Below are positions 44,001 to 64,000 of a DNA stretch of 64,000 nt, one piece after another (the first letter of the stretch is position 1; every line of letters starts with the position of its first letter). Below the pieces are notes generated by a model. The model had not been told where the DNA came from and did not search any database. It saw only the letters and a list, made by a program, of their open reading frames with translations. Position numbers and translations under genes: made by a program. This DNA comes from Prorocentrum cordatum. Lineage: Eukaryota. The DNA is taken from positions 1-64,000 of the forward strand of contig CAUYUJ010000141.1 of assembly GCA_963575745.1 (NCBI GenBank). Reading direction: 5' to 3'.

Positions 44001-45470
44001 TTGAGTTCCCAGCGGGTCTGGGAGCGTGGCTTCCTAGCGTTTCCGATTCGCGTGGCTCCAGGGCGCGCGAAGTGCTTCTGCAGAGCTCCGCAAGCGCCGT
44101 GTGCAAGCCCCCCGAAGCGCCGTTTCCAAGCTTTCCGAAGCGTTTTGCGGCAGCTTCTCCACGCCGCTCCAGAATCCCCGCAGGAACTTGTCCAAAGTTG
44201 CAGCGGGTCCCGGAAGCTCCCATTCCAATATGTTCCCCTAGAACGTGTCCCTCAAGAAAATTCGCAGAACACGTATAGTTTTGCGGGCCCAGTTCTGGTA
44301 TCAGACCGAGTTCGGACATCTAGATACTTGAGAGAAACGCGCCTGATCTTTCTAAATGCATTAGTGCCTGCCAGCTCTGTAGCTCATCTGCAGCTCGAGT
44401 TAAGTTGGGAAAACCGAGAGCACCTGACATGACACTAAACAGCCGAGCCAGCCCACATGCTTTTTGGCAGTAATATGTACCCGATCGAGCTGAGACTCAT
44501 GTGGCGAGCGGGAATGAGAGCGCATATTGGGGGAAAATATTAGAGCTCTAACGAATGTTCAACATTCGAGAAATTCGATTTCAATAAATCAAACAGACAG
44601 AAAACTCGGAGCCGGCGTTAAACCGTCAACCTGGTTACCGCTGGGACCTCCGTGGAGCTCTCAGCACAGCAAATGAGCGCTCAGAGAACAGGGAAGAGCG
44701 TCTTCAAGTGTCAGCTTGAAAACTGACAAAATGTATTTTCCGCCTTTTGAACGACGCCGGTTCCTCTTAGTGTTTTCATGGAAATACTGCATCTAGAGCC
44801 CTGACGCTGGGAGCTGGCGGTGAACCGTCAACCTTGGTTAACGAAGGGACCTCGTAGAGCGCGCAAAGCGGGCGCAGCAATCTCGCATTCCGCGCATGCA
44901 AGGGTTCGGTTTCATGGGAGAAGACTGAAGGAGAACAAGGAGTGAGGAGAAAGGCGACGGAGGAGGCAATGAAGAGGAGGAGCAGGAGAAGAAGCAGGAG
45001 GTGGGGAAGGAAGGCGGGGATCACGAAAGGCATCGTCATCTCTGAGAAAAATTAGCAGAGTACAGATAGTTTCTGATTCCAAGCGTGACAAGTTCAGGCA
45101 TCTGGATACTTGAGACTAGCGCGTCTGATGATTTCCTTCCGATCGTTGTGCCGAACAGCTCTGTTGCTCATCTGCAGCTCAAGTTCTCTCAAGAAACTTA
45201 CCATCATCTCTCCTACATTTCAATAGGATACGAACAGATGTTCCAACCCAGCTCTGGTAGCAGACAGAGTCATGACGTCTAGATACTGGAGACCTGCGCT
45301 CCTGATTAGTTCCTGTCGCCTGGTGTGACAAACAGATCTGTAGCAGATCTCCAGCTCCAGCCCAGCCAAGAAAACAATCCCGATCTCAAATAATAGCAGA
45401 GTACCAATAGATTTGTTGCTCTAGCTCCGGTAGCAAACCGAGTTCAGACATCTAGACATTTGAGACGAAC
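41060..45470. repeat. Older, diverged ~177 bp-type monomers (ctctggtagcagaccgagttc…agctctgtagctcatctgcagctcgagtta)
   Basis: Recognisable but degenerate relatives of the monomers in 46.3-64 kb. Confidence 0.75.
41283..43006 (-). mobile_element. Family H1 copy 4 (~119 bp array then homogeneous 90 bp array), inserted in an A-run of the 177 bp-type repeat
   Basis: gaaa|ttagcctggcgaaggacccaaccatatgcag ... cccaacaccacaggatggctggg|aaaaaagtacg; the flanks continue one diverged monomer. Confidence 0.8.
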
Positions 45471-45475
45471 GCGCC

Positions 45476-45670
45476 GCACGCAACCTGATTGGAGTAGAAG
45501 GTGCGGCCCTCTCGGGCCAGTTGGGTGAGCTCGTCGGCCCTGGTGTTATCTTCCCTGTACTCATGTCGAAATATGTCCCGTCCTATGTTCGCCGCGCGGA
45601 TGCTGGCACGGCAGCTCAACTCGTACATTGTCTCCACACACTCCGCAAGCCTGTCGGCATAACCCTGATT
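45476..45670 (-). pseudogene. C-terminal fragment of an RNase HI-like domain (probable retroelement origin)
   Basis: …IGRDIFRHEYREDNTRADELTQLAREG matches the F.H..RE.N..AD.L...A motif of RNase HI-like/RVT_3 domains. Confidence 0.65.
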
Positions 45671-48600
45671 ACTGGGAACTGGCGGTAAACCGTCAACCAG
45701 GATACCGCCGGGCACCTCGTAAAGCTCTTTTGTTGCACAGCGTTCCTCGGAACACATGAAGGAAGCTTCCGAATCAAGAACAGAAAAACTTGAAAAAAAC
45801 ACGATTTTTCGGTTTTCATCCAAAGTTGGTCCCCTCAAGTCTTTCGATAGAAATACTGCAGCTACGGACCTAAAATTTTACTAGCAGACGCGGCATAACC
45901 CACTATAGGTGGGGAAGATCTGGTTTCTCGAAATGAATTGTCAAATATCTCTCAAATCTTAGCACTTGGCAGCGTCCAAAACCCGGAGAGCAAAGAGAAC
46001 ACACACCGGAAAGAACTTGCGCCGGCGGTGAACCGTCAACCTGGTCACCGCCGGTAACCTCGTAGAGCTCCACGGATCATATTGCTAAGAATCGAAATAG
46101 GAAGCTTCTGGAAGCATTTCTCGAAAAAAACAATAATCATATTTTTCATGTCAACGTGAAGTTGGTTTCGCCAAGTGTTTTGATAGTAAACGTGTGCCTA
46201 CAGAGCTCATATTAAGACGCAGAGGCCCTCATAGTTGTCTACAGGTCCGAAAAATCTGCTTTCTTAAAATAAATTGTCAAATATCTTTCAAATCTTAGAA
46301 ACCGACCGAAAGTTGTCACATCTTCTTTTCTGGCCGGGTCGTCCAACTGGGCGCGGGCGGTAAACCATCAACCTTTCTTACCGCCGGGGGACTCGTAGAG
46401 CTTCCTGATAATATACAATGTTGAAAGAAAATTGCAGAGGACGAATAGTTTTACACCTCTCGATGCAACAGCCGAACGCCCCCTAATGCCTCTGGATTGT
46501 CTTCTGTACGAGCTCTGTAGCTCTCCTGCAGCCCGAGATACGTGCGTAAATTGATAGCACCTCTCAAGATGACTCGAACAAAACAAATAGTTTCGCAAAC
46601 CCAGCTCGAGTATCAAACCGAGTTCAGAGCTCTGAATGCGACCGGCGGACGCGTCTGATGATTACCAGCCCTGCAGCCTGCAGCATGAGTTAAGTGCAGA
46701 AAACCGAGAGCACCTCTCAGGATGACTCGAACAATACGAACAGTTTCGCGCATCTAGTTCGGGCAGCAGACCGAGTTCCGAGCTCTGGATTCGACAGACG
46801 GACGCGCCTGATGTCTTCAAATCGATGTATGTGATCACCTGCACTGTAGCCACCTACAGCCCGAGTTAAGTGCAGAAACCCGACAGCACCTCTCAAGATG
46901 ACTCGAACGATACGAATAGTTTCGTGATTTTAGATCGGGCAGCAGACCGAGTTCAGATCCCAAACGCGAATGATTCTGAATCGGTTTCTGTAAGTATCAG
47001 CTCTGTAGCTGTCCTATAGCTCGAGTTTATTACAGAAAACCGAGAGCGCCTGTGAAGATGACTCGAAAAATATGAACAGGTTTACGGACCTAGCTCGGCT
47101 AGCAGACCGAGTTCAGACCTCTAGATGCAACAGACAGACGTGCCTGATCATTCTAAATCGATGAAGTGTGCTTAGCAGCTGTGTAGTTGTCCTGTATCTC
47201 GAGTTAAGGCGAATAAACTAACAGCGCGCATCACGATGACTCGAAACGGCCGATCCCGCCTGGACGCTCTTTGGCAGTGAGAGGTAGCCGATCGAGCTGA
47301 GATCAAGATGGCGAGCGGTAATAAGATCGAATACCACGGGAAAAAATACTAGAGCTCAAACGAATTGAGGAATCTTGAGAACAAAATTTCCAACCGACCA
47401 ACTCGGAGCCGACGGTAAACCGTCAACCAGGTTACCGCTGGGAGCCTCGTAGAGCTCTTTCCCTTGCGCGGCCCTGCTCGAAACACATAGAAGAACTCCA
47501 TCAAGCGTTAACTGTCGATATTAATTAATAACTCGGGAAATGTTGTTTCTGGGTTTTACGCAATGTCAGTTGTTCCTAGTTCTCATGCGGTAAACCGTCA
47601 ACCAGATTACCGCCGTAAGCCTCGTAGAGCTCTGAATGGACGAAGTCGCGAAGCAGAAAAACGCTTCTCAATACCAGCTTGAAAAATAAAGAAATGTTGT
47701 TTTCGGTCGTACACAATGTTGGTCCCCCTAGTGTTTTGATCGAAATACTGCAGCTGGAGCACTGAGAATTGCACCATCGGAAGCGCCATGATTCACTGCA
47801 TAGAATGACAATTCGAATTTGCAAGACAAATTTCAAAATCTCTCGCCATCTTCGAAAAACCGCCCCCAGGTCACCACATTGTCCGCCCGGGCCGGATTGG
47901 CCAACTGGACGCCGGCGGTAAACCGTCAACCTTTCTTACCGCAGGGGGACTCGTAGAGCTTCCTGACAATATATAATGTGGAAAAAATGCAGAGAACGAA
48001 TCGTTTTTCAGCCCAAGCGATTTCAGACCTCTCGATCCAACAGCCGACCGCCCCCAATGCTTTTGGATTGTCTTGTTTACGAGCTCTGCAGCTCTCCTCG
48101 AGTTACGTGCGTAAATCGACAGCACCTCTCAAGATGACTCTACAAAACAAAAGGTTGGAAACCCAGCTCGAGTATCAAACCGAGTTCAGACCTCTGAATG
48201 CGACAGGCGGACGCATCTGATGTCTGCGAATCGATTCCTGTGACTACCAGCACTGTAGCCCCCCCTACAGCCCCAGCTAAGTACAGAAAACCGACAGCAC
48301 CTCTCAGGATGACATACAATAGTTTCGCGATTCTAGTTCGGGCAGCAGACCGAGTTCCGAGCTCTGGATTCGACAGACGGACGCGCCTGATGTCTCCAAA
48401 TCGATTCTTGTGACCACCAGCACTGTAGCCCCCTCAGCCCGAGTTGAGTGCAGAAGACCGAGAGCACTTCTCAAGATGACTCGAACAATACGAATAGATT
48501 CGCGATTCTAGATCGGGCAGCAGACCGAGTTCAGAGCTCCGGATTCAACAGACAACTGCCACTGATGATTCTGAATCGGTTTCTGTCCTATCAGCTCTGC

Positions 48601-51600
48601 AGCTGTCCTGTAGCTCGAGTGAAATACAGAAAATCGAGAGCGTCTGTCAAGATGACTCGAATAATACGAATAGGTTTGCGGACCTAGCTCGGCTAGAAGC
48701 CCGAGTTCAGACCTCTGGATTCAACAGACGAACGCGCCTGATCATTCTGAATCGATTAGCTGTGCTCACCAGCTCTGCAGCTGTCCTAAAGCTCGAGTTA
48801 TGTACAGAAAACCGTCATCTCGTGTCAAGATGACTTAAAACGGCCGATCCCGCCCGTGTGCTTTTTGGAAGTAAAAGATACCCGATCGAGATGAGATCAG
48901 GATGGCGAGCGGGAATAAGATCGAACATCATGGGAAAAAATACTAGAGCTCTAACGAATGTTTGAATTTCGAGAACAAAATTTTCAACCGACCAAAAGTC
49001 AGCAAAAGTTCCGTCGAGATTTTTCTTGCCAACTAGCTCTCCAGCGCCCCGGAATTACTCTTAAGCTTCCAGCAATAACTTGCTAAGGGAAGCTCTACGA
49101 GTTACTGGGCGCCGGCGGTAAACCGTCAACCTTTCTTACCGCCGGGGGACTCGTAGAGCTTCCTGACAATATATAATGTCGAAAAAAATTGTAGAGAACG
49201 AATAGTTTTTCAGCCCAAGTTATTTCAGACCTTTCGATGCAACAACCGAACGCCCCTGATGTTGGATTCTCTTCCATACGAGCTCTGTAGCTCTCCTACA
49301 GCCCGAGTTACGTGCGTAAATCGAAAGCACCTCTTAAGATGACTCGAACAATACGAACAGTTCGGCAAACCTAGCTCGAGTATCAGACCGAGTTCAGACC
49401 TCTGAATGAAAGAGTGGGGCGCGTTTGATGTCTCCGAATCGACTCCTGTGATTACCAGCCCTGCAGCCCACCTACAGCCCGAGTTAAGTGCAGAAAACCG
49501 ACAGCACCTCTCAGGATGACTCGAACAATACGAATAGTGTCGCGGACCTAGTTCGGGCAGCACACCGATTTTCGAGCTCTGGATTCGACAGACGGACGCG
49601 CCTGATGTCTCGAATCGATTCCTGAGATAACCAGCCGTGTAGTCCCCCTACAGCCTGAGTTAAGCACAGAAAACCGATAGCACCTCTCAAGATGACTCGA
49701 ACAATACATATAGTTTCGCGATTCTAGATCGGGCAGCAGACCGAGTTCAGAGCTGTGGATTCAACAGACAATGCGACTGATGATTCTGAATCGGTTTCTG
49801 TAAGTATCAGCTCCGTAGCTGTCATATAGCTCGAGTTAAATACAAAAAACCGAGAGCGCCTGTCAAGATCACTCGAATAATACTAATAGGTTTGCGGACC
49901 TAGCTCGACTAGCAGACCATTCTGAATCGATAAGGTGTGCTCACCAGCTCTGTGACTCTTCTATAGCTCGAGTTATGTTCAGAAAACCGCCACCGCGTGT
50001 CAAGATGACCCGAAACGGCCGATCCCGCCGCAGTGCTTTTTGGCAGTAATATCTACCCGACCGATCTGAGATCAAGACGGCGAGCGGGAATAAGATCGAA
50101 TATCACGAGAAAAATATTAGAGCTCTAACGAATGTTCAAATTTTGAGAACATAATTTTCAACCGAGCAAAAGTCAGCAAAAGGTCCGTCGAGATTTTTCT
50201 TGTCAACTAGCTCTCCAGCGCTCCGGAACTGGGCGCCGGCGGTAACCCGTCAACCTTCCTTACCGCCGGGGGACTCGTAGAGTTTCCTGACAATATATAA
50301 TGTGGAAAAAATGCAGAGAACGAATAGTTTTTCAGCCCAAGCGATTTCAGACCTCTCGATGCAACAGCCGAACGCCCCCAATGCTTCTGGATTGTCTTCT
50401 TTGCGAGCTCTGTAGCTCTCCTACAGCCCGAGTTGCGTGCGTAAATCGACAGCACCTCTCAAGATGACTCTAACATAACGAATAGTTTGGCAAACCTAGC
50501 TCGAGTATCAAACCGAGTTAAGACCTCTGAATGCGACAGGCGGACGCGTCTGATGTCTGCGAATCGACTCCTGTGATTACCAGCCCTGCAGCCCCCCTAC
50601 AGCCCGATTTAAGTGCAGAAAACCGACAGCACCTCTCAGGATGACTCGAACAATACATTAGTTTCGCGGACCTAATTCGGGCAGCAGACCGAGTTCCGAG
50701 CTCTGGATTCGACAGGCGGACGCGCCTGATGTCTTCAAATCGTTTCCTGTGACCACGAGCACTGTAGCCCCCCCCAGCCCGAGTTGAGTGCAGAAAACCG
50801 AGAGCACTTCTCAAGATGACTCGAACAATACGAATAGATTCGCGATTCTAGATCGGGCAGCAGACCGAGTTCAGAGCTCTCGATTCAACAGACAAATGCC
50901 ACTGATGATTCCGAATCGGTTTCTGTAAGTATCAACTCTGTAGCTGTCCCATAGCTCGAGTTAAGTACAGAAAACCGAGAGCGTCTCTCAAGATGACTCG
51001 AAAAATACGAATAGGTTTGCGGACCTAGCTCGGCTAGCGGACCGAGTTCAGACCTCTGGATTCAACAGGCGAACGCGCCTGATCATTCTGAATCCATTAG
51101 CTGTGCTTACTAACTCTGTAGCTGTCCTAAAGCTCGAGTTATGTTCAGAAAACCGTCATCGCGTGTCAAGATGACTTGAAACGGCCGATCCCGCCTGCCT
51201 GCTTTTTGGCAGTAAAAGGTACCCGATCGAGCTGAGATCAAGATGACGAGCGGGAAAAAGATCGAATATCACGGAAAAAAATACTAGAGCTCTAACGAAT
51301 GTTCAAATGTAAACTGGGCACCGGCGGTAAACCGTCAACCTTTCTTACCGCCGGGGGACTCGTAGAGCTTCCTCACAACATATAATATTAGAAAAAATTG
51401 CAGAGAACGCCCAAGCGATTTCAGGCCTCTCGATACAACAGCCGAACGCCGCCCCCAATGCTTCTGGATTGTCTTCTGTACGAGCTCTGTAGCTCTCCTA
51501 CAGCCGTAGTTACGCGCGTAAATCGACAGCACCTCTCCAGATGACTCGAACAATACGAATAGTTTGGCAAACCTAGCTCGAGTATCAGACCGAGTTCAGA

Positions 51601-54411
51601 CCTCTGAATGCGACAGGCGGACGCGTCTGATGTTTCCGAATCGATTCCTGTAATTACCAGCCCTGCAGCCCCCCTACAGCCCGAGTTAAGTGCAGAAAAC
51701 CGAGAGCACCTCTCAGGATGACTCGAACAATACGAATAGTTTCGCGGACCTAGTTCGGGCAGCAGACCGAGTTCGGAGCTCTCGATTCGAGATGCAGACG
51801 CGCCTGATGTCTCCGAATCGATTCCTGTGACCGCGAGCACTGTATCTCTCTTACAGCCCGAGTTAAGTGCAGAAAAGCGACACCTCTCAAGATGACTCGA
51901 ACAATACGAATAGATTCGCGATTCTAGATCGGGCAGCAGATCGATTTCAGAGCTCTGAATTCAACAGACGAACGCGACTGAGCATTCTGAATCGGTGTCT
52001 GTAAGCATCATCTCTGTAGCTGTCCTATAGCTCGAGTTTACTGCAGAAAACCAAGAGCATCTGTCAAGATAACTCGAATAATACGAATAAGTGTGCGAAC
52101 ATAGCACGGCTAACAGACCGAGTTCAGACCTCTAGATGCAACAGACGAACGCGCATGATCATTCTGAATCGATGAGGTGTGCTTACCAGCTCTGTAGCTG
52201 TCCTGTATCTCGAGTTAAGTCCAATATACTGACAGCGCGTATCAAGAAGACTCGAAACGGCCGATCCCGCCCTTGTGCTTTTCGGCAGTAAAAGGTACCC
52301 GATCGAGCTGAGATCAAGATAGCGAGCGCGAATAAGATCGAATATCACGGGAAAAAATACTAGAGCTCTAACGAATGGTTGAATTTTGAGAACAAAACTG
52401 GGCGCAGGCGGTAAACCGTCAACCTTTGTTACCGCCGGAGGACTCGTGGAACTTCCTGACAGCATGTAATGTCGAAAAAAATTACAAAGAAAAAATAGTT
52501 TTTCAGCCAAAGCAATTTCAGGCCTCTCGCATGCAACAGCCGAACGCCCCCGATGCTTCTGGATTGTCTTCTGTACGAGCTCTGTAGCTCTCCTACAGCC
52601 CGAGTTACGTGCGTAAATCGACAGCATCTCTCAAGATGACTCGAACAATACGAATAGTTTAGCAAACCTAGCTCGAGTATCAGACCGAGTTCAGACATCT
52701 GCATACGCGTCTGATGTCTCTGAATCGATTCCTGTGATTACCAGCCCTGCAGTAAGATCGAATATTACGGGAAAACATACTAGAACTCAAACGAATTGAG
52801 GAATTCCGAGAACAAAATTTTCAACCGACCAAAAGTCACCAAAAGGTCCGTCGAGATTTTTCTTGCCAATTAGCTCCCCAGCGACCCGGAAGTAATCTTA
52901 AGCTTCCAGCAAAGGGAAGCTCTACGAGTTATTTTCAACCGACCAAAAGTCAGCAAAAGGTGCGTCGAGATTTTCCTTGCCAACTAGCTCTCCAGCGCGC
53001 CAGAATTACTTTTTTAGCTTCCAGCAACAACTTGCTAGTGGAAGCTCTACGAGTTATTTCAAAAACAAAATTTTCATCCGACCACTTGGTAGCGTCCACT
53101 GGGCGCCGGCGGTAAACCGTCAACCTTCCTTACCGCCGGACGACTCGTAGAGCTTCCAAAGCATATATAACGTCGAAAAAAAATGCAGAGAACGAACAGT
53201 TTTTCATCCTAAACGATTTCAGACCTCTCGATGCAACAGTCAAACGCCCCTCATGCTTCTGGATCGTTTTCTGTGCGCACGAGCTCCGTAGCTCTCCTAC
53301 AGCCCGAGTTACGTGCGAAAATCGACAGCACCTCTCAAGATCACTAGAACAATACAAATAGTTTCGCGAATCTAGCTCGAGTATCAGACCGAGTTCAGAC
53401 ATCTGAATGCAACAGGCGGACGCGCCTGATGTCTCTGAATCGATTCCTGTGACAACCAGCCCTGCAGCCCCCTTACAGCCCGAGTTAAGTGCAGAAAATT
53501 GACAGCACCTCTGACTCGAACAATACGAATAATTTCGCGAACATAACTCGGGCAGCAGGCCGAATTCAGGGCACTGAATGCGACAGATGGACGCGACTGA
53601 TGTCTCCGAATCGATTCAGTGATTACCAACCCTGCAGCCCCCTTACAGCCTGAGTTAAGCGCAGAAAGATGACAGCACTTTTCAAGGTGACTCGACGAAT
53701 AGAAATAGTTTTGCGAACCTAGCTCGGGCAGCACACCGAGTTCCGAGCTCTGGATTCGGCAAGCGGGCGCGCCTGATGTCTCCGAATCGGTCCCTGTGAG
53801 TACGAGCCCTGTAGCCCCCCTACAGCCCGAGTTAAGTGCAGAAAACTGTCAGTACCTCTCAAGACTCCAACAACACGAATAGTTTAACAAACCTAGCTCG
53901 GGCAGCAGACCGAGTTCAGACCTCTAGATGGAACAGACGAACGCGCCTGATGATTCGCAATGGGTTTCTGTGAGAATGAGCTCTGTAGCTGCCCTACAGC
54001 TCGAGTTAAGTACAGAATACCGACAGCGCGTATCAAGATGACTCGAAACAGCCGATCCCGCCGCGATGCTTTTTTGCAGAAATATTTACCCGATCGAGCT
54101 GAGATTAAGATGGCGAGCGGGAATAAGATCGAACATGGTCAGAAAAAATGGAGCTCTAACGAATGGTTGAATTTCGAGAACACCATTTCCAACCGACCAA
54201 AAGTTCCGTCGAGATTTTTCTTGCCAACTAGCTCTCCAGCGCGCCGGAATTACTCTTAAGCTTCCAGCATTAACTTGCTAAGGGAAGCTCTACGAGTTAC
54301 TGGCGCCGGCGGTGGGACGTGAACCTGGTCACCGCCGGAAAGCTCGTAGAGCTTCCCTCACTGGTAAGAGTGCAGAGAATCGACACAGAGTTTTTATATA
54401 TATATATATAA

Positions 54412-54454
<43 letters not shown>

Positions 54455-54786
54455 ATTCTTTTTTTTTTTCGATGTTTATATTCGCTCAGTTCCTGGAAGT
54501 CAACTCATGCAAAAATGCGACGCGCAAATTCTGCTTTCTCACAAAAAAAGGTCGAATATCTTTCAAATTTTCGCAAAGCCACATTGTCCGCCTCGGTCGG
54601 CTGGGCCAACTAGCTCAATCCCGCGCCGGAATTCCTCTAGCTCATCGATGCCGAAGAGCTCTACGAGGTACTGGGCGCCGGCGATAGACCGTCAACCTTT
54701 CTTACCGCCGGGGGACTCGTAGACCTTCCTGACAACATATAATGTCACAAAAAATTACAGAAGAAATAGTTTTTCAGCCTAAGCAA

Positions 54787-54962
54787 CTTGGTAGCGTCCA
54801 AAACCCGGAGAGCGAAGAGACTCTTTGGAACGGGAAATATTTCCTGGAGAGCTCTGGGAAGCTCCCCAGCAGCGCTGCCGAAGCGCTGGCAGAAACTCTT
54901 CCATGCGTGCCTGCACGCGCTACTCTTGAACCCTCTCGGAATTTCAGCGAGCTCTCCGGGAA
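54787..54962 (-). mobile_element. Family H3 mini-element (176 bp) nested in an H2 unit
   Basis: Interrupts the conserved aagcaa|tttc site; CCCGGAGAGC near the left end and GCTCTCCGGG at the right end; terminal hairpin ttgg-tagcgt-ccaa. The same left end occurs at about 45965 and 53085. Confidence 0.75.
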
Positions 54963-56435
54963 TTTCGAACCTCTCGGACGCAATAGCGGAACGCCCCCGA
55001 TGCTTCTGGATTGTCTTCTGTACGAGCTCTGTAGCTCTCCTACAGCCCGAGTTACGTGCGTAAATCGACAGCACCTCTCAAGATGACGCATCAGCTCTGT
55101 AGCTGTCCTGCAGCTCGAGTTAAGTGCAGAAAACCAAGAGCGTCTGTCAAGATGACTCGAATAATACGAATAGGTTTGCGGACCTAGCTTTGCTAGCAGA
55201 TCGAGTTCATACCTCCATGCATGCGGTAGAGCTCTACGAGGTACTGGGCGCCGGCAGTAAACCGTCAACCTTCGTTACCGCCGGGGACTCGTAGAGCTTC
55301 CTGACAACATATAATGTCGAACAAAAATTACACCGACAAAAATAGTTTTTCAGCCCAACCAATTTCAGACCTCTCGGGTGCAACAGCCGAACGCCCCAGA
55401 TGCTTCTGGATTGTCTTCTGCACGAGCTCTGTAGCTCTTCTACAGCCCGAGTAATGTGCGTAAGTCGACAGCACCTCTCAAGATGACTCGAACAATACGA
55501 ATAGTTTGGCAAATCTAGCTCGAGTATCAGACCGAGTTCAAGCCTCTGCATGGGACAGGCAGACGCGTCTGATGTCTCTGCATCGAATCATGTGATTACC
55601 AGCCCTGCAGACCCCCTAGACCCCGAGTTATCGAATAGTTTCGCGGATCTAGTCCTGGCAGCAGACAGAGTTCAGAGCTCTCGATTCGAAAGGCGGACGC
55701 GCCTCATATCTCCGAATCGATTCCAGTGATTACCAGATATGCAGCCCCCCTACAGCCCGAGTTAAGTGCAGAGAGCCGACAGCATCTCTCAAGATAACTC
55801 GAACAATACGAATAGTTTCGCGAATCTAGATCGGAGAGCAGACCAAGTTCAGAGCTCTCGATTCAGCAGACAACGGCATCTATGATTCTGAATCAGATTC
55901 TGTACGTATCAGCTAGGTAGCTGTCCTGCAGCTCGAGTTAAGTACAGAAAACAGAGAGCGTCTGTCAAGATGACTGGAATAATACGAATAGGTATGTGGA
56001 CCTAGCTCGGCTAGCAGACCGAGTTCAGACCTCTGGATTCAACAGGCGAACGCGCCTGATCATTCTGCATCGATTAGCTGTGCTCACCAGCTCTGTAGCT
56101 GTCCTGAAGCTCGAGTTATCTTGATAAAACCGACAGCGCGTATCGATGACTCGAAACAGCCGATCCCGCCTGCCTGCTTTTTGGCAGTAAAAGGTACCCG
56201 ATCGAGCTGATATCAAGATGGCGAGCGGGAATAAGATTGAATATCATGGGAAAAAATACTAAAGCTCTAACGAATGTTGAAATTTTGAGAAAAAAAATCA
56301 ACCGACCAAAAGTCATCAAAAGGTCCGTCGAGCTCTTCGGCATCGATGAGCTAAGAGGAATTCCGGCGCGGGGTGCAGCTAGTTGGCCATTGGCCAACCC
56401 GGCCCGGACGGACAATGTGAGGACCTGGGGTCGGT

Positions 56436-57020
56436 TTTTCGAAGATGGCGAGAGATTTTGAAATTCGTTTTCCAAATTTGAATTTTTATTCTATGCAGTG
56501 AATCATGGCGCTTTCGATGGTGCAATCCCCAGGGTCATAGCTGCATTATTTCGATCAAAAGACTACGGGGAACCAACATTGTGCACGACCGAAAACAACA
56601 TTTCTTCATTTTTCAGCTAGTACTGAGAAGCGTTTTTTTGCTATCATCTCGGAACCGACTCGGTCTATTCAGAGCTCTACGAGGTCCCTGCGGAAAACCT
56701 GGTTGACGGTTTACCGTTGGTTTACCGTTGACTGGGAACCTGCGGTAAACCGTCAACCAGGTTACCGCCGGGACCCTCGTAGAGCTCTGCATAGACCAGA
56801 TCGGTTCCGAGATAACAGCAGAAAAAAGCTTCTGCATACTAGCTTCAAAAATAAAGACATATTTTTTCCGGTCGTACAATGGTGGTTCCCCCTAGTCTTT
56901 TGATCGAAATAATGCAGCTAGGGCCCTGAGAATTGCACCATCGAAAGCGCCATCATTCACTGCATAGAATAAAAATTCAAATTTGAAAAACGAATTTCAA
57001 AATCTCGCCATCTTCGAAAA
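56436..57020. repeat. Long imperfect palindrome (~290 bp arms) formed by two tail-to-tail H2 modules
   Basis: 56436-56725 is the diverged reverse complement of 56732-57020. Confidence 0.9.
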
Positions 57021-60000
57021 ACTGGGCACCGGCGGTAGACCGTCAACCTTTCTTACCGCCGGGGGACGCGTAGAGCTTCCTGACAACATAATGTCGAAGA
57101 AAATTACACCGAAAAAAAAGTTTCTCAGCCCAAGCAATTTCAAACTTCGCGGATGCAACAGCCGAACGTCCCCGATGCTTCTGGATTGTCTTCTGCACGA
57201 GCTCTGTAGCTCTCCTACAGCCCGAGTGACGTGCGTAAATCGACAGCACCTCTCAAGATGACTCGAACAATACGAATAGTTTGGCAAACCTAGCTCGAGT
57301 ATCAGACCGAGTTCAGACCTCTGCATGCGACAGGCGGACGCGTCTGATGTCTCTGAATCGATCCCTGTGATTACCAGCCCTGCAGCCCCCCCTACAGCCC
57401 GAGTTAAGTGCAGGAAACCGACAGCACCTCTCAGCATGACTCGAACAATACGAATAGTTTCGCGGACCTAGTTCGGGCAACAGACCGAGTTCGGAGCTCT
57501 GGATTCGAAAGGCGGACGCGCCTGACGACTCCGAATCGATTCCAGTGATTACCAGCCATGCAGCCCCCCTACAGCCCGAGTTCAGTGCAGAGAACTGACA
57601 GCATCTCGCAAGATGACTCGAACAATACGAATAGTTTCGCGATTCTAGATCGGGCAGCAGACCGAGTTCAGAGCTCAAGATTCAACAGACAACGGCCACT
57701 GATGATTCTGGATCAGATTCTGTACGTATCAGCTCTGTAGCTGTCCTGTAGCTCGAGTTAAGTACAGAAAACTAAGTGCAGAGAACGGACAGCATCTCTC
57801 AAGATGATCTGAACAATACGAATAGTTTCGCGATTCTAGATCGGGCAGCAGACCGAGTTCAGAGCTCTGGATTCAACAGACAACGGCCACTGATTATTCT
57901 GAAGCAGATTCTGTACGTATAAGCTCTGTAGCTGTCCTGTAGCTCGAATTAGGTACAGAAAACAGAGAGCGTCTGGGAAGATGACTCGAATAATACGAAT
58001 AGGTTTGCGGACCTAGCTCGGCTAGCAGACCGAATTCAGACCTCTAGGTTCAACAGGCGAACGCGCCTGATCATTCTGCATCGATTAGCTGTGCTCACCA
58101 GCTCTGTAGCTGTCCTATAGCTCGAGTTATCTATAAAACCTACAGCGCGTATCAAGATGACTCGAAACGGCCGATCCCGCCTGCCTGCTTTTTGGGAGTA
58201 AAAGTTACCCGATCGAGCTGAGATCAAGATGGCGAGCGGGAATAAGATCGAATATCATGGGAACAAATACTAGAGCTCTAACGACTGTTGAGATTTTAAG
58301 AACAAAATTTTCAACCGACCAAAAGTCAGCAAAAGGTTCGTCTAGATTTTTCTTGCCAACTAGCTCTCCAACGCCCCGGAACTGGGCGCCGGCGGTAAAC
58401 CGTCAACCTTGGCTACCGCCCGGGAACTCGTAGAGCTTCCTAGCTCGACTTAAGTTGAGAAAACCGACAGCACCTACCAACATTCTGACTTATAGTGAAT
58501 ATTATTTGACCTCTGAATGCGACAGGCGGACGCGTCTCATGTCTGCGAATCGACTCCTGTCATTACCAGCGCTGCAGCCCCCCTACAGCCCGAGTTAAGT
58601 GCAAAAAACCGACAGCACCTCTCAGGATGACTCGAACAATACAATAGTTTCGCAGACCTAATTCGGGCAGCAGACCGAGTTCCGAGCTCTGGATTCGACA
58701 GACGGACGCGCATGATCTCTTCGAATCGATTCATGTGAGAACCAGCACTGTAGCCTGCTCTCAGCGCAAGTTGAGTGAAGAAAACCGAGAGCATCCCTCA
58801 AGATGACTCGACCAATACGAATAATGTTGCGAGTCTAGATCGGGCAGCTGACCGAGTTCAGGGCTCTGGATTCGACAGACAAACGCAACTGACGATTCTG
58901 AATCAGTTTCTGTAAATATCAGCTTTGTAGCTGTCATACAGCTCGAGATAAGTACAGAAAATGGAGAGTTTCTGTCACAATGACTCGAATACTACGGATA
59001 GGTTTGCGAACCTAGCTCGGCTCACAGACCGAGTTCAGACCTCTAAATTAGACAGGCGAACGCGCCTAATCATTCTACATCGATTAGCTGTGCTCACCAG
59101 CTCTGTAGCTGCTCTACAGCTCGAGTTATGTTCAGAAAACCGTCAGCGCGTATCAAGATGACTCAAAACGGCCGATCCCGCCACAGTGCTTTTCGATAGT
59201 AATATTCACCCGATCGAGCTGAGATCAAGATGGCGAGCGGGAATAAGATCGAATATCACGGGAAAAAATACTAGAGCTCTAACGAATTGTTGAATTTCGA
59301 GAACCAAATTTTCAACCGACCAAAAGTCACCAAAAGTTCCGTCGAGATTTTTCTTGCCAACTGGCGCCGGCGGTGAACCGTCAACCTGGTCACCGCCGGG
59401 AACCTCGTAGAGCTCCTCTCACTGGTATGAGCGCAGAGAATCGACACAGAGTGAAAAATAGAGATTTTTCGAAAATCTTGAAATTCGATTTTTTCGATGT
59501 TCATATTCGCTCAGTTCCTGGAAGTCAACTCATGCAAAAATGCATCGAGAGAGCTGAGCTGCTGTCAGAGAGGAGTTCATACGCCAATGCTCGGCGTAAA
59601 AATCTGCTTTCTCAAAATAAATTGTCAAATATCTTTCAAATTTTCGCAAAACCACCCAAAAGTTATCACATTGTCCGCCTCGGCCGGCTGGGCCAACTAG
59701 CTCCACCCCGCGCCGGAATTCCTCTAGCTCATCGATGCCGAAGAGCTCTACGAGGTACTAGCTCTCCAGCGCGCCGGAATTACTGGGCGCCGGCGGTAAG
59801 CCGTCAACCTTTGTTACCGCCGGGGGACTCGTAGAGCTTCCAGACAGTATATGATGCGGTAAAAAAACTCCAGAGAACGACAAGTTTTTCAGCCCAAGCG
59901 ATTTCAGACCTCTCAAGATAACTGCAACAAAAAACGAACAGTTTGGCAACCCAGTTCGAGTATCAAACCGAGTTCAGAACTTTCAATGCGGCGAATGCTG

Positions 60001-63000
60001 ATGTCTGCGAATCAACGCATCTAATTACCAGCCCTGCAGCCCCCCCCCCCCCTACAGCCCGGGTTCAGTGCAGAAAACCGACAGCAGCTCTCAGGATGAC
60101 TCGAATAATACAATAGTTTCGCGACCCTAGTTCGAGCAGCAGACTGAGATCCGAGCTCTGGGTTCGACAGACGGACGTGCCTGATGTCCCCAAATCGATT
60201 TCTGTGACCAGCAGCACTGTAGCCCGCCCACAGCACAGTTCAGTGCAGAAAACCGAGAGCACTTCTCAAGATAACTCTAACAATACGAATAGTTTCGTGA
60301 ACCTAGCTCGGGCAGCAGACCGAGTTCAGAGCTCTCGATTCAACAGACCAACGCGTCTGATGATTTCCAATCGATATCTGTCACTATGAGCTCTCTAGCT
60401 GCCCTACAGCTCGAATTGAGTACAGAAAACCGAGAGCGTCTGTCAAGATGACTCGAAAAATACGAATAGGTTTGCGGACCTAGTCCAGACCTCTGGGTTC
60501 AACAGGCGAACGCGCCTGATGATTCTGGAAGCGATAGGTGTGCTTACCAGCTCTGTAGCTTTCCTGAAGCTCGAGTTACCTTGAGAAAACCGACACCGTG
60601 TATCAAGATGACTCGAAACGGCCGATCCCGCCATGACGCTTTTCGATAGTAATACCCACCCGATCGAGCTGAGATCAAGATGGCGAGCGGGAATAAGATC
60701 GAATATCACGGGAAAAAATACTAGAGCTCTAACGAATTGTTAAATTTCGAGAACATAATTTTCAACCGAGCCAAAGTTGTCAAAAGTTCAGTCGAGATTT
60801 TTCGAGCCAACTGGGCGCCGGCGGTAAACCGTCAACCTTTCTTACCGCTGGGGGACTCGTAGAGCTTCCTGATAATATGCAAAGTACAAAAAGTTTTTCA
60901 GCCCAAGCGATTTCAGGCCTGCCAACTCTAAATAAAAAACCTAATAATTTGCCAACCCAGCTCGAGTATCAAACGAGTTCAGACCTCTGAGGGCGACAGG
61001 CGGACGCGTCTGATATCTGCGAATCGACTCATGTTAATTACCAGCCCTGCAGCCCCCTACAGCCCGAGTTAAGTGCAGAAAACCGACAGCACCTCTCAGG
61101 ATGACTCGAATAAACTCCGCAGCTCAGAGCAGGAAGTGGCTCTCGGCTCGACAGACGGACGTCCCTGATGTCTCCGAATCGATTTCTGTGACCACCAGCA
61201 CTGTAGCCCTCCCAACACGAGTCAAGTGCAAACCATGAGCACTTCTCAAGAAGACCCGAAGCGTACGAATAGGTTCGCGAACCTAGCTCGGGCAGCAGGC
61301 CGAGTTCAGAGCTCTCGATTCAACAGACGAACGCGCCTGATGATTTCCAATCGATTCCTATGATTATCAGCTCTGTAGCTGCCCTACATCTCGAGTTGAG
61401 TACAGAAAACCGAGAGCGTCCGCTAAGACGACTCGAATAATACATATAGGTTTGCAGAGCTAGCTTGGCTAGCAGACCGAGTTCAGATCTCTGGATTCAA
61501 CAGGCGAACGCGCCTGATCATTCTGAATCGACTAGCTGTGCTCACCAGCTCTGTAGCTGTCATATAGCTCGAGTTATGTTCAGAAAACCGTCGGCCGATG
61601 CCGCCCGGAACTCGGATCCGGCGGTAAACCGTCATCCAGGTAACCGCCGGGAGCCTCGTAGAGCTCTGTTCTCGCGAGGCGCCGCTCGAAGCACACGAAA
61701 AAAGCTTTCTTGAGCAAGAAGAAAGCTCGAAAAATATGTTTTTTATTGTTTATCTTCGCTTTGTGGATCTAGCTCGAGTGCGAGACCGAGTTTGGTCCTC
61801 TCGATGCCGGGAAAAAGACGCGCTGGGTGATACAGGATCCGTTTTGCGTACCAGCTCTGTAGCTCTTCTGCATCTTTAGTTAAGGGAAACCGACAGCACT
61901 CCTTAAAATGTCTCGTATAATACGAATTGTTTCGCAGATCTAGCTCGAGTAGCAAACCGAGCTCAGACCTCTCGATGGAACAGACGAACGCGTCTGCTGA
62001 TTCTAGATCGGTTTCTCTAATTATCAGCTCTGTAGATGTCCCAAGTCTCGAGTGAAGTACAGAAAACCGTCAACGCGTGTCAAGATGACTCGAAACGGCC
62101 GACAGTTCCCTCAAGTCTTTCGATAGAAATACTGCAGCTACAGACCTGAGAATTTAACTGGCAGACGCGGCATAATCCACTACAGGTGGGAAAAATAGCG
62201 GCTCTTAAAGCGAATTTTCAAATTTTACACAGAGACAGAAAAACCGACTCCGAGTCGTCACATTGTCTCATAAGGTCGGGTCGGCCAACTAGCTTCACCC
62301 TGCGCCCGAATTCCTCTTAGCTCATCTTGCCGAAGAGATCCACGAGGTACTGGCGCCGGCGGTGAACCGTCAACCTGGTCACCGCCGGGAACCTCGTAGA
62401 GCTCCTCTCACTAGTAAGAGTGCAGAGAATCGAGAGAGAATCAAAAAATGGAGATTTTTCGAAAATCTTGAAATTCGATTTTTTCGATGTTCACATTCGC
62501 TCAGTTCCCGGAAGTCAACTCACGCAAAAATGCATCGATAGAGCTGAGCTGCTGTCAGAGAGGAGTTCATATGCCAATGCTCGCGTAAAAATCTGCTTCT
62601 TCAAAATAAATGGTCAAATATCTTTGAAATTTTCGCAAAACCACCCAAAAGTTGCCACATTGTCCGCCTCGGCCGGCTGGGCCAACTGGCGCCGGCGGTG
62701 AACCGTCAACCTGGTCACCGCCGGGAACCTCGTAGAGCTCCTCTCACTGGTAAGAGTGCAGAGAATCGACACAGAATCCAAAAATTGAGATTTTTCGAAA
62801 ATCTTCAAATTCGATTTTTTCGATGTTCATATTCGCTCAGTTCCTGGAAGTCAACTCATGCAAAAATGCATCGCGAGAGCTGAGCTGCTGTTAGAGAGGA
62901 GTTTATATGCCAATGCTCGACGTAAAAATCTGCTTCCTCAAAATAAATGGTCAAATATCTTTCAAATTTTCGCAAAACCACCCAAAAGTTACCACATTGT

Positions 63001-64000
63001 CCGCCTCGACCGGCTGGGCCAACTAGCTCCACCCCGCGCCGGAATTCCTCTAGCCCAACGATGCCGAAGAGCTCTACGAGGTACTAGCTCCACCCCGCGC
63101 CGGAATTCCTCTAGCTCATCGATGCCGAAGAGCTCTACGAGGTATTACTGGGCGCCGGCGGTAAACCGTCAACCTTTCTTACCGCCGGGGGACTCGTAGA
63201 GCTTCCTGACAATATATAATGTGGAAAAGAATTTCAGAGAACGACTAGTTTTTCAGCCCAAGCGATTATAGACCTCTCAAGATGACTCTAACAAAACAAA
63301 CGAACAGTTTTCCAATCGAGCTCGAGTATGAAACCGAGTTCAGACCTCTGAATGCGACAGGCGGACGCGTCTGATTTCTGCGGATCGATTCCTGTGATTA
63401 CCAGCTCTGCAGCCCCCCATACAGCCTGAGTTAAGTGAAGAAAACCGAGAGTACCTCTCAGGATGACTCGAATAATACAACAGTTTGGCGGATCCCGGTC
63501 GAGCAGCAGACCGAGTTCCGAGCTCTCGATTCGACGAACGGACGCGCCTGATGTCTCGAAATCGATTCCTGTGACCAGCAGCACTGCAGCCCTCCCCCAA
63601 CACGATTTAAGTACAGAAAACCGAGAGCACTTCTCAAGATGACTCGAACAATACCAATAGGTTCGCGAACCTAGCTCGGGGAGCAGGCCCAGTTCAGAGC
63701 TTTTGATTCAACAGACGAACGCGCCTGATAATTCTCAATCGATTTCTGTGATTATCAGCTCTGTGGCTGCCCTACAGATCGAGTTAAGTACGAAAAACCG
63801 AGAGCGTCTGCTACAATGATTCGAATAATACGAATAGGTTTGCGACCCTAGCTCGGCTAGCAGACCGAGTTCAGACCTCTGGATTCAACAGGCGAACGCG
63901 CCTGATCATTCTGAATGCATTAGCTGTGCTGACCAGCTCTGTAGTTGTCCTGAAGCTCGAGTTATCTTGAGAAAACCGACAGCGCGTATCAAGATGACTC

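What the first reader, a model, noticed from the sequence alone, without database searches (positions are those of the whole stretch)
44605..64000. ~20 kb polarised array of modules with one invariant hairpin end and a variable other end: candidate rolling-circle (Helitron2-like) satellite-building system
Seen: about 20 modules begin at the same base, always A|CTGG on +, followed by a ~10 bp stem (CCGGCGGTAA…TTACCGCCGG) and CTCGTAGAGCT. Complete modules (47905-49104, 53099-54299) end in the complementary GAAGCTCTACGAGTTA, which itself lies in a hairpin. Most others are cut short at different points before the next invariant end. Read on the minus strand this is 5' subTIR+IR … 3' subTIR+hairpin+CCAG|T. 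Established: this is the Helentron/Helitron2 end architecture, and non-canonical Fusarium Helitrons have a fixed 3' end with multiple 5' ends. Inference: the apparent satellite is a concatemer or self-targeted stack of non-autonomous rolling-circle elements.
Basis: partly seen in the sequence, partly recalled or inferred. Interest (0 to 1): 0.8.

Follow-up and report, generated by a model that had tools for sequence, protein, structure and literature searches.

The report
Self-nesting rolling-circle-type transposon pile-up
What looks like a 20-kb satellite is a one-directional pile of small non-coding jumping genes of the Helitron2 type that repeatedly landed at a few fixed spots near the front end of one another, which shows one way such elements can build satellite-like DNA.

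Summary
Between 44604 and 64000 there are 26 same-strand "heads", and 20 of them start ACTGG. Each head has a 10-bp-stem hairpin followed by CTCGTAGAGCT. Ten "tails" end in AGCTCTACGAG(T/G)T.

The anatomy, read on the minus strand, is that of non-autonomous Helitron2/HINE elements:
- a 5' inverted repeat 2 nt from the end
- a 5' hairpin
- 176-bp central repeats
- a 3' inverted repeat followed by a hairpin
- no target duplication
- mostly T^T targets

Modules are interrupted, not truncated. After 5 of 5 informative tails, the sequence resumes the interrupted host at the next base. All 12 insertions into family-A hosts lie 47 to 142 nt from the host's 5' end. Three sites recur: CTAGT^TGG, GTAAT^TCC and AGAGT^AAT. 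These sites sit in sequence blocks conserved across families. The same sites are used in diverged relatives on marine metagenome contigs.

No Rep/helicase gene is in the window or in those contigs, so the enzyme is inferred. Up to 16 elements are still open at 64000, and their closures lie outside the window.

This scan had already reported the same kind of nested array on other DNA of this genome. It is a known kind of element in an unusually orderly, self-targeting arrangement.

The parts
39979..40550 (+). Solo complete element (572 bp, B/C-like) in the opposite orientation, outside the array. Flanks are cagAGT^ and ^Ctttg, with no target duplication.
43390..44603 (-). Family-A-like internal-repeat and tail pieces with no identified head. 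This is the oldest, outermost part of the pile.
44604..46345 (-). Four old, diverged heads (44604, 44806, 45671, 46015), each interrupted by the next. The element at 46015 is cut at the CTAGT^TGG-type site.
46346..47400 (-). Family A copy, open, interrupted at unit position 1091.
47401..47903 (-). B-type head (47401) and B'-type element (47576, with a damaged 3' tip). The latter is interrupted at ...ttggcca^.
47904..49103 (-). Complete family A element, 1200 bp. It has a head with hairpin, about 4.6 copies of a 176-bp repeat, and a tail ending GAAGCTCTACGAGTT.
49104..50227 (-). Family A copy abutting the previous tail. Open, interrupted at ccgga^ (unit position 1150).
50228..53097 (-). Family A copy in two pieces (50228-51312 and 53056-53097) that encloses two nested A copies. 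The first is 51313-52396 plus 52931-53055, complete but split. The second is 52397-52930, complete, with few repeats.
53098..54298 (-). Complete family A element, 1201 bp.
54299..54669 (-). Complete C-variant element, 371 bp, with a low-complexity (TA)n / A35 / T11 expansion.
54670..55242 (-). Complete short element, 573 bp, with a family-A head.
55243..56332 (-). Family A copy, open, broken at unit position 1114.
56333..56730 (+). Inverted B'-type copy lacking its first 11 nt. Its hairpin end abuts the hairpin end of the next element, forming a palindrome whose arms are 92% identical.
56731..57020 (-). B'-type copy, open, interrupted at cttcgaaaa^.
57021..58380 (-). Family A copy, open, interrupted at ccgga^.
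58381..59781 (-). Family A copy in two pieces (58381-59359 and 59757-59781) that encloses the complete family C element 59360-59756 (397 bp). It is interrupted again at ggaatt^.
59782..60809 (-). Family A copy, open, interrupted at gcca^.
60810..63146 (-). Family A copy with an internal deletion, in two pieces (60810-61609 and 63144-63146 'att'). It encloses complete B 61610-62348 (739 bp), split C 62349-62684 plus 63083-63143, and complete C 62685-63082.
63147..64000 (-). Family A copy that runs off the end of the window.

Best explanation
The block is a nest, not a satellite and not a concatemer. It consists of small non-coding elements of at least three related families: A about 1200 bp, B 739 bp, C about 397 bp. 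They have the end structures of Helitron2/HINE rolling-circle transposons.

On its own strand (the window's minus strand), each element reads, 5' to 3':
- two bases
- the inverted repeat CTCGTAGAGC(TTCC), which folds back on ...GAGT as a 5' hairpin
- conserved blocks (GAGTAATTCCGG, GCTAGTTGGC)
- central 176-bp repeats
- the complementary inverted repeat
- a hairpin with the conserved loop ACCGTCAACC
- the end (C)CCAGT

New copies inserted without target duplication after a T, mostly at T^T and often after AGT, on the same strand as resident copies. They landed in the first 47 to 142 nt of the resident copy, or right after its 3' AGT. Each insertion therefore leaves nearly the whole host on one side and a short 5' stub on the other. 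A chain of nested insertions then looks like head-to-tail units that are 'cut short', and the stubs pile up at the far end.

Shown here: the anatomy, precise resumption of hosts, the site preference, the co-orientation and the lack of duplications.

Inferred: the enzyme is a RepHel supplied in trans. It picks these sites because they mimic its own cleavage site (..AGT^) next to structures it binds, on single-stranded DNA. That would also explain the single orientation.
For: Resumption. After tails at 52930, 53055, 59756, 63082 and 63143 the host continues at the next base (5 of 5 informative tails). Rejoined hosts align without a gap across the junction to uninterrupted copies in 3 of 5 tests. 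A fourth aligns at the junction with a 6-nt indel just upstream. The fifth has only 3 nt to judge, and these are the 'att' predicted between two hot sites.

Site preference. All 12 insertions into family-A hosts fall at unit positions 1058-1153 of 1200. Three sites recur with different host/insert combinations. gcca^actag is used 5 times, ccgga^att 3 times and ggaatt^act twice. Of 16 ACT sites in the A unit, only positions 1, 1129 and 1154 are used. Copies are 73-96% identical, so these are separate old events rather than a recent duplication.

Targets. Of 16 insertions with an inferable site, 12 are T^T, 2 T^A, 1 T^C and 1 has an unknown 5'-side base before G.

No duplication. None of 8 complete solo copies has a target duplication of 3 bp or more.

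Orientation. 26 heads lie on + and 1 on - in the array.

Hairpins. In 37 heads from the window and 31 metagenome matches, 13 cells changed on both sides against 1.9 in shuffles (0 of 500 shuffles reach it), with 92% of cells paired. The 5' hairpin is predicted in 7 of 7 elements of different families.

Independent relatives. 32 marine metagenome contigs carry the head. By my reading, 8 of 31 usable heads sit in the same 5' region of another element: 6 at the same two sites, 1 next to one of them, and 1 in the 5' hairpin. L001 and L019 show last-in-first-out closures.

Definitions. Helitron2 from PMC3627910 and HINE/DINE-1 from PMC4067079 (passages). Self-insertion and tandem Helitrons are discussed in PMC5148889 (passages).
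Against: No Rep or helicase domain was found. None of 224 window ORFs of 110 aa or more passes a Pfam cut-off with such a domain. None of 41 metagenome-contig ORFs of 150 aa or more does either. The link to RepHel therefore rests on end structure alone.

Up to 16 elements are unclosed at 64000, so for them truncation cannot be excluded from this window.

The 3' inverted repeat lies 47 nt from the 3' end, further than the 20-30 bp given for Helitron2.

A crude age test did not show inserts to be younger than their hosts: 3 of 8 pairs. It is confounded by indels and subfamilies.

One junction is irregular. The inverted copy at 56333 lacks 11 nt and forms a palindrome.

The older left part (44604-47903) parses less cleanly.

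Short-read contigs of public runs could not confirm the long-range order.
Confidence: 0.8

Rival explanations
1. Rolling-circle concatemer or one-ended products. The array arose by read-through replication of a circle or by abortive transposition, giving units with a fixed 3' end and truly truncated 5' ends.
For: Five tail-to-head junctions are exact. Tandem and truncated Helitron arrays, and multiple 5' termini, are reported in the literature (PMC5148889 and PMC7492417, passages). Sixteen elements have no visible 5' end in the window.
Against: 5 of 5 informative tails are followed by the missing part of the host. Of the 5 exact junctions, 4 join different families (A|C', C'|A-short, A-short|A, B|C). 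The only A|A pair is 83% identical to the reference unit, against 100% for its neighbour. Break points recur at the same three sites in different families and in metagenome relatives.
Confidence: 0.07
2. The elements have Helitron2-like ends but are moved by another single-strand DNA enzyme, for example a one-tyrosine HUH protein without a helicase, or an enzyme not yet described.
For: No RepHel was found in the window or in 32 metagenome contigs. The 3' inverted repeat sits further from the end than described for Helitron2. The very strong conservation of the loop and the AGT^ rule recall hairpin-guided HUH systems such as IS200/IS605 (recalled, not checked here).
Against: Every structural feature published for Helitron2/HINE that could be tested is present. 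A dinoflagellate RepHel of the Helitron2/Helentron clade is on record (PMC8788227, passage). Earlier notes of this scan report helicase remnants in similar elements of this genome (unchecked).
Confidence: 0.1
3. An ordinary complex satellite with higher-order units, spread by unequal crossing-over or segmental duplication.
For: Tandem Repeats Finder reports 176-bp arrays throughout the block. All units share one orientation.
Against: Unit boundaries fall at exact element ends. Three families with different bodies are interleaved. There is no fixed higher-order period. Copies differ by 4-27% with no block pattern. The same ends occur as solo copies with clean flanks here and in metagenomes.
Confidence: 0.03

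Closest known systems
Non-autonomous Helitron2 elements (for example Helitron-1N1_CRe and CRe-1/2/3 of Chlamydomonas; Bao and Jurka 2013, PMC3627910, passages read)
   Same: Short asymmetric terminal inverted repeats. The 5' repeat lies 0-2 nt from the end and forms a 5' hairpin. The 3' repeat lies just upstream of a 3' hairpin. Stems show compensatory changes.
   Different: Here the 3' repeat is 47 nt from the end, against about 20-30. No autonomous partner was seen. The copies pile into one another at fixed sites, which that paper does not describe.
HINE / DINE-1 (Helentron-associated interspersed elements; Thomas et al. 2014, PMC4067079, passages read) and oyster Cg_HINE (PMC7492417, abstract and passages read)
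   Same: About 13-bp subterminal inverted repeats, a short inverted repeat beside the 5' one, a 3' stem-loop, central tandem repeats making up much of the element, TT target preference and no target duplication.
   Different: Those elements are described as dispersed, or as donors of satellite monomers. Here whole elements nest co-oriented into each other's first 47 to 142 nt. Partner Helentrons carry an endonuclease domain, which could not be examined here.
Self-insertion, tandem copies and multiple 5' termini of Fusarium Helitron2-like elements (Chellapan et al. 2016, PMC5148889, abstract and passages read)
   Same: Helitron2-like ends. That paper proposes nested self-insertion as the source of composite elements with several 5' ends.
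   Different: In Fusarium these are single cases with short duplicated 5' pieces. Here there are 27 events in 20 kb, with recurrent sites and visible last-in-first-out closure.
Paramecium chromosome-end Helitrons that appear to insert into one strand of telomeric repeats (PMC13085455, passages read)
   Same: A strand-specific sequence target would explain an absolute orientation bias.
   Different: In Paramecium the target is host telomeric DNA. Here it is the element family's own 5' region.

Membership tests
Helitron2 (structural definition, PMC3627910) | [quoted passage not shown] | tested here: met
   CTCGTAGAGCTTC(C) in family A and CTCGTAGAGCTC in family C, 2 nt from the 5' end. In a fold of a tail-to-head junction the two repeats pair over 15 bp.
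Helitron2 (structural definition, PMC3627910) | 3' inverted repeat subterminal, immediately upstream of a 3' hairpin, about 20-30 bp from the 3' end | tested here: inconclusive
   The repeat lies 5 nt upstream of the hairpin, as required, but 47 nt from the 3' end, because the hairpin is 34 nt and is followed by 8 nt.
Helitron2 (structural definition, PMC3627910) | 5' hairpin formed by the 5' inverted repeat with downstream bases | tested here: met
   Predicted in 7 of 7 elements of different families. Fold z-scores range from -0.3 to -3.4, so the energy alone is weak. The shared geometry, with ACTC paired to GAGT, is the argument.
Helitron2 (structural definition, PMC3627910) | 3' terminal hairpin kept by compensatory changes | tested here: met
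   92% of cells paired. 13 cells changed on both sides against 1.9 in shuffles (0 of 500). Sliding the partner drops pairing to 25-63%.
Helitron2 / Helitron superfamily | Autonomous partner encoding Rep (two-tyrosine HUH) fused to a Pif1-type helicase, with the same termini | not testable with these tools
   No genome is held. No such domain in 224 window ORFs or in 41 ORFs of 32 metagenome contigs.
HINE / DINE-1 (PMC4067079) | Insertion at TT without target site duplication | tested here: met
   12 of 16 inferable sites are T^T on the element strand, 2 are T^A, 1 is T^C and 1 has an unknown 5'-side base before G. No duplication of 3 bp or more in 8 of 8 complete solo copies. Rejoined hosts are gap-free at the junction.
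HINE / DINE-1 (PMC4067079) | Central tandem repeats between conserved flanks | tested here: met
   176-bp repeats, 1.8 to 10.4 copies per array, 66-85% matches. They occupy unit positions of about 110-930 of 1200.
Canonical Helitron (Helitron1) | 5' TC and 3' CTRR ends, insertion between A and T | tested here: not met
   The ends are (A/C)(A/C)CTCG... and ...CCAGT, and targets are mostly T^T.
   The termini here carry inverted, not direct, repeats. The definition is recalled from memory only.

The most novel reading that the evidence does not exclude
The conserved blocks just behind the 5' hairpin (..AGAGT^AAT^TCCGG.. and ..GCTAGT^TGGC..) are copies of the transposase's own cleavage signal (..AGT^). 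They act as built-in landing pads, so the family homes into itself, strand-specifically. This would make it a self-targeting DNA transposon lineage, shared by many families in different marine protists, that grows satellite-like blocks while sparing host genes. The nests would then record the order of insertions.
Probability: 0.3. Interest if true: 0.7.

Novelty: new variant of a known kind. Interest (0 to 1): 0.5.

Why it matters
The block gives a concrete way for rolling-circle-type transposons to build long, polarised, satellite-like DNA. The route is repeated same-strand insertion into the front end of resident copies. It needs neither replication slippage nor unequal exchange. The block also warns that apparently truncated tandem Helitron copies may really be nests. 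The recurrent sites lie beside conserved structures and resemble the element's own 3' cut site. This makes target choice by the (still unseen) enzyme directly testable with oligonucleotides. Such nests could also be used to order insertion events in time.

Tried and rejected
- **Whole genome.** None is held for this window, so no genome-wide search for termini or for RepHel was possible.
- **Pfam on ORFs.** All 224 window ORFs of 110 aa or more gave only sub-threshold chance matches. The 41 metagenome ORFs of 150 aa or more gave housekeeping domains only, plus 2 overlapping L002 ORFs whose tiny-domain matches (DUF1737, PP_kinase_N, UBA_N4BP1) reach the cut-off with no matched stretch and look like chance. 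No Rep or helicase was found.
- **Viral contigs.** 0 matches to the head pattern.
- **Public sequencing runs.** 20 of the 24 listed runs hold part of the stretch, and no RNA holder is listed. The contigs I laid are unitigs of 66-164 nt, so they cannot confirm the long-range order. They do show joints that begin exactly at the first head base (53098) after tail-region sites. They also show joints that leave exactly from the last tail base (54298) into host continuations. The flanking sides are only 19-30 letters, below the tool's own bridging rule, so I do not count them as evidence.
- **Age test.** The test that inserts should look younger than their hosts gave 3 of 8 pairs. It is confounded by indels and subfamilies and is uninformative.
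- **Covariation from window heads alone.** This was weak: 4 cells changed on both sides, with 4 of 500 shuffles as high. It became clear only once the metagenome heads were added.
- **Loose regex for nested metagenome heads.** It flagged 11 of 31. By eye, 3 of these (L009, L010, L018) look false, so I use 8 of 31.
- **HELIANO paper.** My look-up failed on a too-short search term and I did not repeat it.
- **Literature on deep self-nesting.** Searches for Helitron2/Helentron, Helitron + dinoflagellate, and Helitron + self-insertion/tandem/satellite turned up no description of deep self-nesting at fixed 5'-proximal sites. The searches cover open-access text only, and I read no supplements.


Full report
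**Observation**

The reported pattern is real and far beyond chance. CTCGTAGAGCT (up to 1 mismatch) occurs 36 times in the window against 1.19 expected. CCGGCGGTAA occurs 51 times against 3.83 expected.

Between 44604 and 63147 I count 26 heads on the + strand. Each is ACTGG (20 of 26) or a close variant. A hairpin follows: CCGGCGGTAA, then a loop starting ACCGTCAACC, then TTACCGCCGG. About 5 nt later comes CTCGTAGAGCT.

Ten tails end in AGCTCTACGAG(T/G)T. One of these, at 62348, is degenerate. An eleventh apparent tail at 56685 is the inverted repeat of an oppositely oriented head.

It has a 110-nt head, about 4.6 copies of a 176-bp repeat and a 270-nt tail.

At least three families share the ends but not the body:
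- Family A, about 1200 bp.
- Family B, 739 bp (61610-62348).
- Family C, about 397 bp (59360-59756, 62685-63082, and a variant at 54299-54669).

**Interrupted, not truncated**

I cut the region at every head and tail and asked what follows each of the 10 tails. Five are followed at once by a new head.

The other five are followed by sequence that continues, at the very next base, the element that the insert had interrupted:
- 52931-53055 completes the copy that began at 51313.
- 53056-53097 continues the copy that began at 50228.
- 59757-59781 continues 58381.
- 63083-63143 completes 62349.
- The three bases att at 63144-63146 continue 60810. They are exactly the bases that lie between two recurrent sites.

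When the flanks are rejoined in a script and aligned to uninterrupted copies, 3 of 5 align with no gap across the junction. One aligns at the junction with a 6-nt indel a few bases upstream. The fifth is too short to judge.

What Tandem Repeats Finder reports as a 61-bp duplication at 63022-63144 is the tail of an insert followed by the tail of its host.

So 5 of 5 informative cases support nesting, and none supports truncation.

Ten elements are complete within the window, two of them split by inserts. By my parse, up to 16 are still open at 64000. For those, the window cannot decide.

**Ends and target**

On the + strand an element runs from the A of ACTGG to the last T of GAG(T/G)T. The single A/T at the boundary could belong to either end.

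No target duplication is present. Rejoined hosts match uninterrupted copies base for base. None of 8 complete solo copies (one in the window at 39979-40550 and seven on metagenome contigs) has a duplication of 3 bp or more.

On the element's own strand (the window's minus strand), 16 insertions have an inferable site. Of these, 12 lie at T^T, 2 at T^A, 1 at T^C and 1 at an unknown 5'-side base before G.

The base before the cut is T in nearly all cases. On the metagenome contigs, the base after a tail is A in 20 of 21 rows. Often the three bases before the cut are AGT, which is also the element's own 3' end.

**Where inserts land**

All 12 insertions into family-A hosts fall at unit positions 1058-1153 of 1200. 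That is 47 to 142 nt from the host's 5' end.

Three sites recur:

| Site (+ strand) | Site (element strand) | Uses | Events |
|---|---|---|---|
| gcca^actag | CTAGT^TGG | 5 | 46346, 47904, 59360, 60810, 62685 |
| ccgga^att | AAT^TCC | 3 | 50228, 58381, 61610 |
| ggaatt^act | AGAGT^AAT | 2 | 59782, 63147 |

Five more inserts sit directly after the 3' AGT of another element. These are the exact tail-to-head junctions.

The host/insert combinations differ from event to event. Copies are only 73-96% identical in the head, and C copies are about 95% identical. These are therefore separate, old events rather than one duplicated junction.

AGT alone does not explain the choice. The A unit has 16 such sites, and only those at positions 1, 1129 and 1154 are used.

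**Structure around the sites**

Folding the first 70 nt of 7 elements from different families always pairs the 5' inverted repeat with downstream bases. The terminal ACTC pairs with GAGT. The site AGAGT^AAT is therefore the 3' foot of the 5' hairpin, directly across from the 5' end.

I aligned 21 uninterrupted 5' regions, 9 from the window and 12 from metagenome contigs. Beyond the variable hairpin filler, two blocks are conserved: (T/A)AGAG(T/G)AAT(T/A)C(C/G)GG and GAGCTAGTTGGC. These blocks carry the three hot sites.

At a tail-to-head junction the two inverted repeats can pair over 15 bp around the 3' hairpin.

**The 3' hairpin**

Within the window the stem is 92% paired, but evidence for covariation is thin.

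I then added 31 heads from metagenome contigs. The search pattern had fixed only part of the 5' arm and the loop. In this larger set, 13 cells changed on both sides against 1.9 in shuffles (0 of 500 shuffles reach it). Pairing falls to 25-63% when the partner columns are slid.

The loop ACCGTCAACC was fixed by the search pattern in the metagenome set, so its invariance there proves nothing. Within the window it is near-invariant across families.

**Relatives elsewhere**

The head pattern is found on 32 marine metagenome contigs and on no viral contig.

These contigs carry many different bodies, and their flanks range from AT-rich to GC-rich. Some heads sit beside ordinary genes with long open frames, such as GDP-mannose dehydratase, a class I tRNA synthetase and RNase HII. 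The end type therefore occurs in more than one kind of organism.

L025 is family A itself.

By my reading, 8 of 31 usable heads sit in the 5' region of another element:
- L003, L006, L019 and L021 sit at the AAT^ site.
- L001 and L007 sit at AGAGT^AAT.
- L023 sits next to the AAT^ site.
- L012 sits inside the 5' hairpin.

L001 and L019 show two successive closures in last-in-first-out order.

This repeats the site preference in diverged families on independent DNA.

**What could not be shown**

No genome is held. No Rep or helicase domain occurs among 224 window ORFs or among 41 ORFs of the metagenome contigs. The enzyme is therefore inferred from end structure.

Public short-read contigs are too short (66-164 nt) to verify the order of modules. 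Their joints agree with exact ends and with the hot sites, but their flanks are under the tool's bridging rule.

A crude test of whether inserts look younger than their hosts gave 3 of 8 and is uninformative.

One junction is irregular. An inverted B'-type copy at 56333-56730 lacks its first 11 nt and meets the next element hairpin to hairpin. The two arms are 92% identical. This suggests an inverted duplication at the hairpin rather than a normal insertion.

**Mechanism proposed**

Shown here:
- Co-oriented insertion without target duplication.
- Insertion after a T, often after AGT.
- Concentration in the first 47 to 142 nt of resident copies and at their 3' ends.

Inferred, by analogy with Helitrons and other HUH enzymes (established knowledge; not tested here):
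- A RepHel supplied in trans cuts after ..AGT at the 3' end.
- It carries the single strand as a circle.
- It joins the circle into single-stranded target DNA at a site that resembles its own cut site.

Because the mimic sites exist on one strand of the element, next to hairpins that the enzyme presumably binds, inserts land in resident copies in one orientation. Each event leaves a near-full host on the 3' side and a short stub on the 5' side. The chain therefore looks like a polarised tandem array with units cut short.

**Comparison with what is known**

The anatomy meets the structural definitions of two families:
- Helitron2 (PMC3627910, passages).
- HINE/DINE-1 (PMC4067079, passages; oyster Cg_HINE, PMC7492417).

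The one exception is that the 3' inverted repeat lies 47 nt from the end, not 20-30. It does not meet the canonical Helitron definition.

Self-insertion, tandem copies and multiple 5' termini are discussed for Fusarium elements (PMC5148889). A strand-specific target that fixes orientation is proposed for Paramecium Helitrons (PMC13085455). A dinoflagellate RepHel in the Helitron2/Helentron clade is on record (PMC8788227).

My three literature searches found no description of deep, co-oriented self-nesting at fixed sites beside the 5' hairpin. They cover open-access text only.

**Earlier notes of this scan**

The scan has already reported the same kind of nested Helitron2-like array on other pieces of this genome. 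Those notes prompted me to test nesting against my first reading of plain tandem stacking, and the test here is my own. Other notes mention helicase remnants and a RepHel-bearing Helitron in this genome. I could not check them. The notes call the organism a dinoflagellate, which I did not test.

**Verdict**

This is a real feature of a known kind of element in an unusually orderly, self-targeting arrangement. Interest is moderate.

Noticed in passing
window 41330-42905: A different GC-rich satellite with periods of 90, 112 and 269 bp and 88-94% matches. Its unit contains the small palindrome GTGGAGCTCCCTATGGGGCCAC. It lies just left of the transposon pile.
   Followed up: no
window 56333-57020: A palindrome. 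An inverted B'-type copy that lacks its first 11 nt meets a direct copy hairpin end to hairpin end. The arms are 92% identical over 280 nt, and the centre reads GGTTTACCGTTGGTTTACCGTTG|ACTGGG instead of a normal 3' end. It may be an inverted duplication formed at the hairpin.
   Followed up: partly
window 54390-54470: The C-variant copy carries a low-complexity expansion, (TA)n, then a run of 35 A, then T11, where other C copies have ordinary sequence.
   Followed up: partly
L005, L010, L012, L021, L023, L024 (metagenome contigs): Heads of this element type lie beside ordinary genes with long uninterrupted frames: GDP-mannose dehydratase, class I tRNA synthetase, RNase HII, a short-chain dehydrogenase, and Omp85/POTRA. 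The end type therefore also occurs in compact, gene-dense genomes of other organisms.
   Followed up: no
L016 (oriented coordinates 1354, 1732, 2109): Three tail motifs spaced about 378 bp apart, each followed by the same flank. This is a tandem array that repeats an element's 5' end.
   Followed up: no
L025 (oriented 545-579): A family-A tail is followed by 19 nt that match the opposite strand of the 176-bp repeat, and then by a new A head. An insert can therefore also land after ..TTAAGT^ in an oppositely oriented copy.
   Followed up: no
window 1-39900: No ORF of 110 aa or more in this part of the window passes a Pfam cut-off. G+C swings between 42% and 66% in 2-kb steps. The content of this part is unexplained.
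   Followed up: no
window 52300-55300 in public runs X1-X4: The summed word depth of short contigs reaches 10^4 to 10^5 over the heads and tails, in two organism-labelled runs and in marine metagenomes. The family therefore seems very abundant, but summed depth is not a copy number.
   Followed up: partly
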